Positions 38,701 to 39,090 of a DNA stretch of 64,000 nucleotides are shown here, piece after piece. The notes beneath the pieces were generated by a model, which was given only the letters and a program-made list of their open reading frames with translations, was not told where the DNA came from and did not search any database. The stretch is from Lingula anatina (taxonomy: Eukaryota; Animalia; Brachiopoda): positions 6,944,001 to 7,008,000 of the forward strand of contig CM120641.1 in assembly GCA_051362555.1 (NCBI GenBank), in the 5' to 3' direction. A program made the position numbers and the translations under genes. Position 1 is the first letter of the stretch, and each line of letters starts with the position of its first letter.

Positions 38701-38884
38701 GTTGACCGATCAATCGGACGATGTCCCGGTCACTTTTGGTCAAAACTTTTGGACATCGAGCTAGACTAGTCTCTGTCCCAGCCTGTCCATTACTCAAAGT
38801 CAGACTGGCTCCATTTTGGTGGACCTGCGACGACGTGGAAGCAGCAACCTCCCCGTTATGCTGAGGGCAGCCATTAGCTTGCAT
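29776..38884 (-). CDS. WDR26: WD repeat-containing protein 26 (GID7, CTLH E3 ligase subunit), multi-exon; coordinates are from the first AUG (see finding on the upstream non-AUG extension)
   Basis: Starts MQANG. LisH region [32 protein letters not shown] region; [22 protein letters not shown]40 exons ([47 protein letters not shown]). The last exon encodes [13 protein letters not shown] followed by TAG TAG. Confidence 0.95.
36923..38446 (-). mobile_element. Helentron-associated non-autonomous element (HINE/DINE-like), rearranged or composite copy, in WDR26 intron 1
   Basis: Terminal 12-bp hairpin TGTACAGACACA..TGTGTCTGTACA at about 38419-38443. Matching sub-terminal ATGTACAGACA near 36945. 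Small stem-loop and a CTTG|TT end on the - strand. (CGCCAT/CGGCAT)n microsatellite. Extensive identity with 52926-54870. Confidence 0.75.
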
Positions 38885-39090
38885 GTTACTGGCAGACACT
38901 CGAAGCTTTTTCCTCGGCGGAGAGGGGCTTCCACCGTCGTCGGGCTCGGAGGACGATTCCAGTATGACGACCAAACTTCAATGCGGCCGGCAGCAACCGA
39001 GACGGGAATCTCACTGCGCCAAGGTCCAGCCTCTCCAAAGATTTTTTAATCAGCTGATGAAAACACTGTCGACTTGCTTTATTTTGATGA

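What the first reader, a model, noticed from the sequence alone, without database searches (positions are those of the whole stretch)
38882..38980. WDR26 carries an AUG-less N-terminal extension with an NLS, suggesting ancient conserved non-AUG initiation
Seen in sequence: upstream of the MQANG ATG (38884) the frame stays open for 31 codons, back to an in-frame TGA (38980-38978), and contains no ATG. It encodes (L)VVI(L)ESSSEPDDGGSPSPPRKKLRVSASN. Two near-cognate codons sit in strong Kozak context (A at -3, G at +4): agtTTGg at 38974 and ataCTGg at 38962. Recalled knowledge, to be verified: human WDR26 has a non-AUG-initiated extension ahead of the same MQANG, containing a similar S-rich/acidic, GG.S.PPRKK.R motif. 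Inference: the motif has been kept by selection across Bilateria. Leaky non-AUG versus AUG initiation would then give an NLS-containing and an NLS-less isoform of this CTLH-ligase subunit, with SP phospho-sites beside the NLS. Standard annotation would miss it.
Basis: partly seen in the sequence, partly recalled or inferred. Interest (0 to 1): 0.85.

Follow-up and report, generated by a model that had tools for sequence, protein, structure and literature searches.

The report
Ancient CUG start extends brachiopod WDR26
The mRNA for WDR26, a ubiquitin-ligase subunit, in the brachiopod Lingula carries 26 extra in-frame codons that begin at a CUG also kept in insects, other animals and humans, so it likely makes a second, longer protein, predicted to bear a nuclear-import signal, that gene annotation misses.

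Summary
Confirmed and sharpened. The window is Lingula anatina WDR26, annotated from MQANG. RNA-seq (4 runs, 2 studies) covers the AUG-free leader without a splice joint up to about 39085-39100. The open frame and strong near-cognate codons alone are chance-level; conservation is not. The peptide recurs in annelid, mollusc, insect and echinoderm relatives and matches the human ACG/CUG extension of Ivanov 2011. In all 26 sequences carrying it (window plus 25 of 28 loci; 13 lineages) the first Leu is CTG with A at -3, against 36 of 109 other Leu codons. pN/pS is 0.39 in frame and 0.93 upstream. CTG 38962 is the conserved start; TTG 38974 is not conserved. K[KR]x[KR] is kept in 60 of 63 peptides, with an upstream CK2-type patch. 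Leaky CUG/AUG initiation giving forms with and without an NLS is inferred; translation and import are untested in Lingula. The vertebrate case is published; the bilaterian age is not in the papers I found, but this scan noted it before on other DNA (e1-7811611, e1-7631311).

The parts
39092..39099 (.). TGACGTCA palindrome, CRE/ATF-like promoter element (label recalled); the ATG at 39100 overlaps it and lies at or above the read 5' ends
   Evidence: same element 140-159 nt above the CUG in L002-L011, L012, L014
39084..39103 (-). approximate 5' end of the WDR26 transcript
   Evidence: sense depth falls to 2 or less in bin 39083-39103 and to 0 above; 5 molecules begin at 39084 in X9; not CAGE
38978..38980 (-). 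in-frame TGA that bounds the extension
38972..38974 (-). in-frame TTG in strong context; not conserved, possible minor extra start
   Evidence: TTG at this codon in 1 of 13 lineages
38960..38962 (-). conserved CTG (ataCTGg), inferred non-AUG start of the long form
   Evidence: CTG and -3 A in 26 of 26 sequences with the extension; same position as the human CUG
38885..38962 (-). 26-codon N-terminal extension, about 2.7 kDa
   Evidence: transcribed and unspliced; purifying selection
38936..38956 (-). Ser/acidic patch SSSEPDD, CK2-type S-x-x-D/E
   Evidence: S..[DE] in the first 12 residues in 62 of 63 distinct extensions; phosphorylation untested
38900..38920 (-). PPRKKLR, predicted monopartite NLS
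   Evidence: K[KR]x[KR] in 60 of 63; the only such motif in the long form, none in the 574-aa form
38882..38884 (-). annotated ATG (aacATGc), start of the 574-aa short form
   Evidence: P0001 = XP_013416632.1
38679..38884 (-). annotated coding part of exon 1, spliced at 38679 to exon 2 at 35394
   Evidence: loose ends at 38679 in 22-25 reads per run; acceptor located
29779..35394 (-). remaining WDR26 coding exons (CTLH region, WD40 propeller)
   Evidence: tblastn of P0001, RNA joints, Pfam

Best explanation
The Lingula WDR26 mRNA carries a conserved CUG 26 codons above its AUG, at which a minority of scanning ribosomes likely start, making a 600-residue form whose extra N-terminus is predicted to act as a nuclear-import signal, while most ribosomes likely leak on to the AUG and make the 574-residue form. 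Shown: the extension is on the spliced mRNA, is AUG-free, evolves as protein in this frame, and begins at an invariant CTG with A at -3; it is homologous to the human ACG/CUG extension. Inferred: initiation at CUG in Lingula; the long form being minor; importin-alpha binding by PPRKKLR; tuning by phosphorylation of the upstream Ser/acidic patch, as in SV40 large T. The likely outcome is a small nuclear pool of WDR26-CTLH ligase whose size follows start-codon stringency. I put CUG initiation at about 0.9 and the NLS role, given that, at about 0.75.
For: RNA: sense depth 42-51 over 38894-38998 in X3 and X4, no joints, no loose ends in the leader in 4 of 4 runs. DNA: CTG 26 of 26 and -3 A 26 of 26; the codon before it is AGC, AGT, AGG, ATC or ATA; other Leu codons are CTG in 36 of 109, and two invariant LisH leucines in 7 and 6 of 13, giving P of 3e-4 to 2e-3 on the stricter null. 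Identity by codon position is 0.77/0.79/0.44; pN/pS is 0.39 in frame, 1.6-1.7 off frame and 0.93 upstream. Proteins: 79 of 85 motif-bearing relatives have the L[AED]S start; among 63 distinct ones the preceding residue is S41, I10, T7, R3, A1, E1, and entropy rises to 3.4-3.8 bits from -3 upwards. Human: extension sequence, two-band western, MS peptide with CUG and ACG noted. NLS: K[KR]x[KR] 60 of 63; SV40 layout; WDR26 is mostly cytoplasmic with a smaller nuclear pool and nuclear substrates.
Against: No ribosome profiling, proteomics or localisation data for Lingula were available. No conserved hairpin lies downstream of the CUG (z from -1.24 to 1.28 in 13 lineages). Lineages are related, so the P values are optimistic; +4 G and the Leu itself are fixed by my search pattern. 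Vertebrate-like short forms have a second basic cluster before LisH (3 of 74 exon-1 sequences; human too), so the extension may not be the only NLS there. Some insect-like loci keep coding-like sequence and an AUU 20 codons above the CUG, and L013 has an in-frame ATG 20 codons above it, so the CUG need not be the only or main start everywhere. L028 has the basic motif without the CUG, and 2 of 85 proteins have the motif without the Leu start.
Confidence: 0.7

Rival explanations
1. CUG initiation is real, but the basic motif is not an import signal: it is a pseudo-substrate for WDR26's own acidic WD40 pore, or a docking or phospho site for another partner.
For: WDR26 binds basic motifs that are parts of NLSs in NMNAT1 and HBP1, and YPEL5 blocks it by mimicry. 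The invariant start LASS is conserved beyond what an NLS needs.
Against: The degron consensus G/K-R-X-aromatic is absent from the 66 extension matches (the 2 hits of 68 are internal false matches). An SV40-type NLS put into NMNAT1 is not recognised by WDR26-CTLH. The last basic position of K[KR]x[KR] is kept in 60 of 63.
Confidence: 0.17
2. The long form is the main product in Lingula because CUG, TTG and ATA together capture most ribosomes, and the AUG form is minor.
For: Three in-frame near-cognate codons lie within five codons, two in strong context. A Logan protein close to Lingula (P0013) was called from a start at the same place as the TTG (codon not seen).
Against: The AUG keeps a purine at -3 in Lingula and the loci. 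The human western shows the short band as the main one. Near-cognate starts are usually several-fold weaker than AUG (recalled).
Confidence: 0.07
3. The extension is the end of an ordinary AUG-started reading frame whose first exon is spliced or trans-spliced in, or annotation simply missed an upstream AUG.
For: Two named insect proteins are annotated with upstream Met (P0028, P0154). AG sits at -3/-2 in 11 of 13 lineages.
Against: In Lingula an in-frame stop lies 5 codons above the CUG, there is no ATG below 39100, and 4 of 4 runs show no joint or loose end in the leader. Lingula and L027 have AT, not AG, at -3/-2.
Confidence: 0.03
4. The conserved stretch is a non-coding DNA or RNA element, or chance, and is not translated.
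For: The open frame and near-cognate codons are chance-level on their own. A real promoter element is conserved nearby.
Against: Third codon positions vary while first and second do not, in this frame only. No conserved fold. A human peptide from the homologous extension is detected.
Confidence: 0.03

Closest known systems
Vertebrate WDR26 ACG/CUG-initiated N-terminal extension (Ivanov et al. 2011, PMC3105428, candidate 22; passages and supplement excerpts read)
   Same: Same gene, no AUG, same L-A/E-S-S...GG..PPRKK.R peptide ahead of MQANG, CUG at the same residue with A at -3.
   Different: Lingula has 26 codons and no upstream ACG; human has about 100 residues from ACG (my count) with a long low-complexity insert. 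The paper describes the extension as conserved from human to fish and as having arisen independently in flies; here the CUG module is shared by protostomes and deuterostomes. The passages read name no NLS.
Drosophila AUU-initiated WDR26 extension (Ivanov 2011, one passage read)
   Same: Non-AUG extension of the same gene. Insect-like sequences here carry the same core peptide, some with an A-rich AUU upstream.
   Different: The fly sequence was not seen, so homology of that AUU extension to the CUG module is inferred, not tested. Lingula has no such upstream AUU.
SV40 large T antigen NLS with upstream CK2 site (review PMC3022542, passages read)
   Same: Ser-Ser-acidic patch about 13-16 residues before a Pro-preceded basic cluster.
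   Different: Analogy of layout only; no homology, and no binding or phosphorylation tested.
WDR26-binding basic degron G/K-R-X-aromatic of NMNAT1, HBP1 and YPEL5 (PMC7616709, passages read)
   Same: Short basic motif in a disordered stretch.
   Different: No aromatic residue at the required place in any extension.

Membership tests
WDR26/GID7 orthologue | CTLH region plus WD40 propeller; named WDR26 | tested here: met
   P0001 is 100% identical over exon 1 and maps to the window's exons; PF21889 at 90-201 and PF00400
Conserved non-AUG N-terminal extension (Ivanov 2011 class) | Open AUG-free frame continuous with the annotated CDS | tested here: met
Conserved non-AUG N-terminal extension (Ivanov 2011 class) | Present on the mature mRNA with no AUG exon spliced in | tested here: met
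   4 of 4 runs, 2 studies
Conserved non-AUG N-terminal extension (Ivanov 2011 class) | Purifying selection on the peptide | tested here: met
   pN/pS 0.39 in frame over 9 ungapped lineages, 1.6-1.7 off frame, 0.93 upstream
Conserved non-AUG N-terminal extension (Ivanov 2011 class) | Conserved near-cognate codon in good context where conservation begins | tested here: met
   CTG and -3 A in 26 of 26; entropy step
Conserved non-AUG N-terminal extension (Ivanov 2011 class) | Direct evidence of translation in this species | not testable with these tools
   only human MS and western evidence
Classical monopartite NLS with upstream CK2 site | K-(K/R)-X-(K/R) core (consensus recalled) | tested here: met
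   KKLR in Lingula; 60 of 63 relatives
Classical monopartite NLS with upstream CK2 site | S-x-x-D/E site upstream (consensus recalled) | tested here: met
   62 of 63; the pattern is easily met in a Ser/acid-rich patch
Classical monopartite NLS with upstream CK2 site | Binds importin-alpha and drives nuclear import | not testable with these tools
WDR26-binding basic degron (G/K-R-X-aromatic) | Aromatic residue two places after Arg | tested here: not met
   0 of 66 extension matches

The most novel reading that the evidence does not exclude
The CUG-plus-NLS module dates from the origin of animals, and the vertebrate ACG and fly AUU starts are later additions to it rather than independent inventions. 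It is a dedicated switch by which start-codon stringency and CK2 set how much CTLH ligase enters the nucleus to reach substrates such as HBP1 and NMNAT1. Constructs that start at the AUG, and '5'UTR' variants in WDR26 patients, would then miss or hit a functional signal.
Probability: 0.35. Interest if true: 0.8.

Novelty: new member of a known kind. Interest (0 to 1): 0.52.

Why it matters
A single non-AUG start codon kept from the protostome-deuterostome ancestor would be among the oldest conserved non-AUG starts, and it revises the published view that the WDR26 extension is a vertebrate feature. It names a testable cause for the separate nuclear pool of WDR26-CTLH ligase: a minor isoform with a predicted NLS that annotations, and constructs starting at the AUG, omit. 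It also marks part of the annotated 5'UTR of a disease gene (Skraban-Deardorff syndrome) as coding. The phenomenon is already known for this gene, which caps the surprise.

Tried and rejected
No whole genome is held, so a paralogue elsewhere was not excluded; the extension DNA occurs once in the window. The run search listed no RNA holder by index; raw-read runs were laid instead. A downstream hairpin enhancing CUG use was not found. Polymorphism is too sparse to test: 0 listed variants in 38885-38980 and 3 in 38679-38884, two synonymous and one Thr-to-Ser. TTG 38974 was rejected as the conserved start. A frame +1 near-cognate ORF ending at TAA just before the AUG was not pursued; the AUG contexts of the loci do not keep it. 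Pfam has no family for the extension. No structure prediction of the extension with the WD40 propeller is available, so that rival rests on the motif count alone. Dropped rows: of 28 loci, L025 and L026 end before the extension and L028 is divergent; 10 near-identical loci (L002-L011), 4 (L017-L020) and 2 (L023-L024) were each reduced to one representative; 4 of 13 lineages with indels were left out of pN/pS. Searches anchored some insect-like sequences on the wrong Leu and are superseded. Most loci could not be placed in a taxon (best identity to a named protein under 70%). Onea 2022 on nuclear CTLH assemblies was not held; I saw it only as cited in PMC7616709. The .doc supplement of Ivanov 2011, which may show invertebrate sequences, could not be read, and bioRxiv supplements are closed.

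Full report
Identity. The first exon translates to MQANG...[12 protein letters not shown] and is 100% identical to XP_013416632.1, WDR26 of Lingula anatina, 574 aa, annotated from that Met. The protein maps to exons from 38884 down to 29779 on the minus strand and has a CTLH-type region and a WD40 propeller.

Observation. All coordinates check: TGA 38980, TTG 38974, ATA 38965, CTG 38962, ATG 38884. The nearest upstream ATG is at 39100, overlapping a TGACGTCA element. These features alone are near chance: P = 0.25 for 31 open codons, 7 strong near-cognate codons in the 204-nt leader, and at least one in frame in 33% of shuffles.

Transcription. Reads of 4 runs from 2 studies cover exon 1 continuously. 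The two stranded runs show only the minus-strand transcript at depth 42-51 over the extension, falling to about zero at 39083-39103. No joint is listed. The only loose ends are at the donor 38679 (22-25 reads per run), and they match exon 2 at 35394. So the extension lies on the mRNA about 125 nt below the 5' end, and no AUG exon or leader is spliced in. RNA-seq only brackets the start site.

Conservation of the peptide. Four searches gave 167 proteins, many of them exon-1 read-throughs called by prokaryotic gene finders. Of these, 85 have a PP(x)K[KR]-type motif before LisH and 79 of the 85 have an L[AED][ST] start 10-28 residues before it; 4 of the 6 misses are cut short and 2 are divergent. 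Among 63 distinct extensions the residue before Leu is S, I, T or R in 61, all of which have A-first codons. Entropy is 3.4-3.8 bits from -3 upwards. The extension is 25-33 residues long in 51 of 63. By downstream identity to named proteins the extension occurs in Ridgeia (100%), Apostichopus (100%), an oyster (92%), an octopus (88%) and insects (70-87%). The human extension printed by Ivanov 2011 has the same start and motif. A divergent group (L027, P0103, P0107, P0113, P0118) may be non-bilaterian, but that is a recalled resemblance and was not placed.

Conservation of the codon. A metagenome scan gave 28 loci; 25 carry the extension. With the window, 26 of 26 have CTG and A at -3. Reduced to 13 lineages, the comparison is 36 CTG of 109 other Leu codons, and 7 and 6 of 13 at two invariant LisH leucines; the stricter null gives 3e-4 for 13 and 2e-3 for 10 lineages, ignoring relatedness. 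The Leu and the +4 G are built into my pattern; the codon choice and the -3 base are not. Over 9 ungapped lineages, identity by codon position is 0.77, 0.79 and 0.44; uncorrected pN/pS is 0.39 in frame, 1.67 and 1.64 off frame and 0.93 upstream. The TTG is Lingula's alone among 13. The human CUG reads actCTGg, and Zhu 2018 lists a strong CUG 24 nt below a strong ACG with a peptide from the extension. No downstream hairpin exceeds synonymous shuffles.

Mechanism. Shown: an AUG-free, transcribed, protein-constrained frame starting at an invariant CUG. Inferred: leaky scanning, with a minority of ribosomes starting at CUG (600 aa) and the rest at the AUG (574 aa), which keeps a purine at -3. The human western cited by Ivanov shows a main short and a minor long band. 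The peptide keeps K[KR]x[KR] in 60 of 63 and S-x-x-D/E in 62 of 63, the layout of the SV40 T NLS, where CK2 phosphorylation upstream speeds import. The Lingula short form has no K[KR]x[KR]. Human WDR26 is reported as mostly cytoplasmic with a smaller nuclear pool, and its substrates NMNAT1 and HBP1 carry NLS motifs. I therefore read the long form as the nuclear-targeted one. Against: no direct test exists here, and vertebrate-like short forms have a second basic cluster. The pseudo-substrate rival lacks the aromatic residue of the WDR26 degron.

Exceptions. L013 has an in-frame ATG 20 codons above the CUG, perhaps above its start site. L023/L024 have a probable intron between extension and AUG. 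L028 keeps PPRKR behind a strong AUU, without the CUG, across a candidate 56-nt intron (introns not confirmed by RNA). L002, L010 and L014 have an A-rich AUU 20 codons above the CUG. These fit an old CUG module to which lineages added or swapped starts, which questions, but does not disprove, an independent origin in flies.

What is known. Ivanov 2011 (PMC3105428: passages, supplement excerpts and one supplement part read) reports the ACG/CUG extension from human to fish and an AUU extension in flies, judged independent. The Fedorova preprint (one passage) lists WDR26 among genes without an annotated near-cognate form in GENCODE v35. Zhu 2018 (PMC5834625): one passage and supplement rows. PMC7616709, PMC12687426 and PMC3022542: passages. 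PMC13082882: only a reference-list hit. Seven searches listed no paper whose title or abstract start describes an invertebrate CUG or an NLS in this extension; most listed papers were not opened, and subscription journals are not covered. Earlier notes of this scan report the same reading for a sea urchin and another animal, and non-AUG extensions of fungal GID7; I saw them after forming my reading and tested the animal claim independently.

Verdict. A real feature: an orthologous, probably ancestral, member of a published non-AUG extension. Interest 0.52.

Noticed in passing
window 39099-39077 (minus strand); L002-L011, L012, L014: A TGACGTCA element, followed in the window and L012 by CAAAATAAAG, sits 137-159 nt above the CUG; its translation (DVT..QNK) shows in several unrelated exon-1 read-throughs. 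It suggests a WDR26 core promoter kept across phyla.
   Followed up: partly
L002 553, L010 553, L014 231, L028 170: A-rich in-frame AUU (caaaATT) above the CUG in insect-like loci, with similar peptide between; in L028 it seems to replace the CUG. Possibly related to the fly AUU extension.
   Followed up: partly
P0163, P0164: 700-aa WDR26 proteins with a Met-started, basic, unrelated N-terminal extension holding KRRK in place of the CUG module.
   Followed up: no
window 40452-45114 (+): Carboxylesterase-family gene (PF00135) head to head with WDR26, about 1.5 kb away; reads on the opposite strand at 40676-41092 in X3.
   Followed up: no
window 24121-25661 (+): Two-exon p31comet/MAD2L1BP gene (PF06581); ORFs on the opposite strand at 20965-23970 suggest another gene close by, recalled as USP24-like and not tested.
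   Followed up: no
window 36922-38452 and 39204-39371: Repeats in intron 1 and above the promoter that draw hundreds of diverged reads with indels, probably non-autonomous transposon copies.
   Followed up: no
window 29000-29800: Run X9 differs from the window at many fixed places in the 3' region that X3 and X6 do not share: a diverged population or cryptic species under the same label.
   Followed up: no
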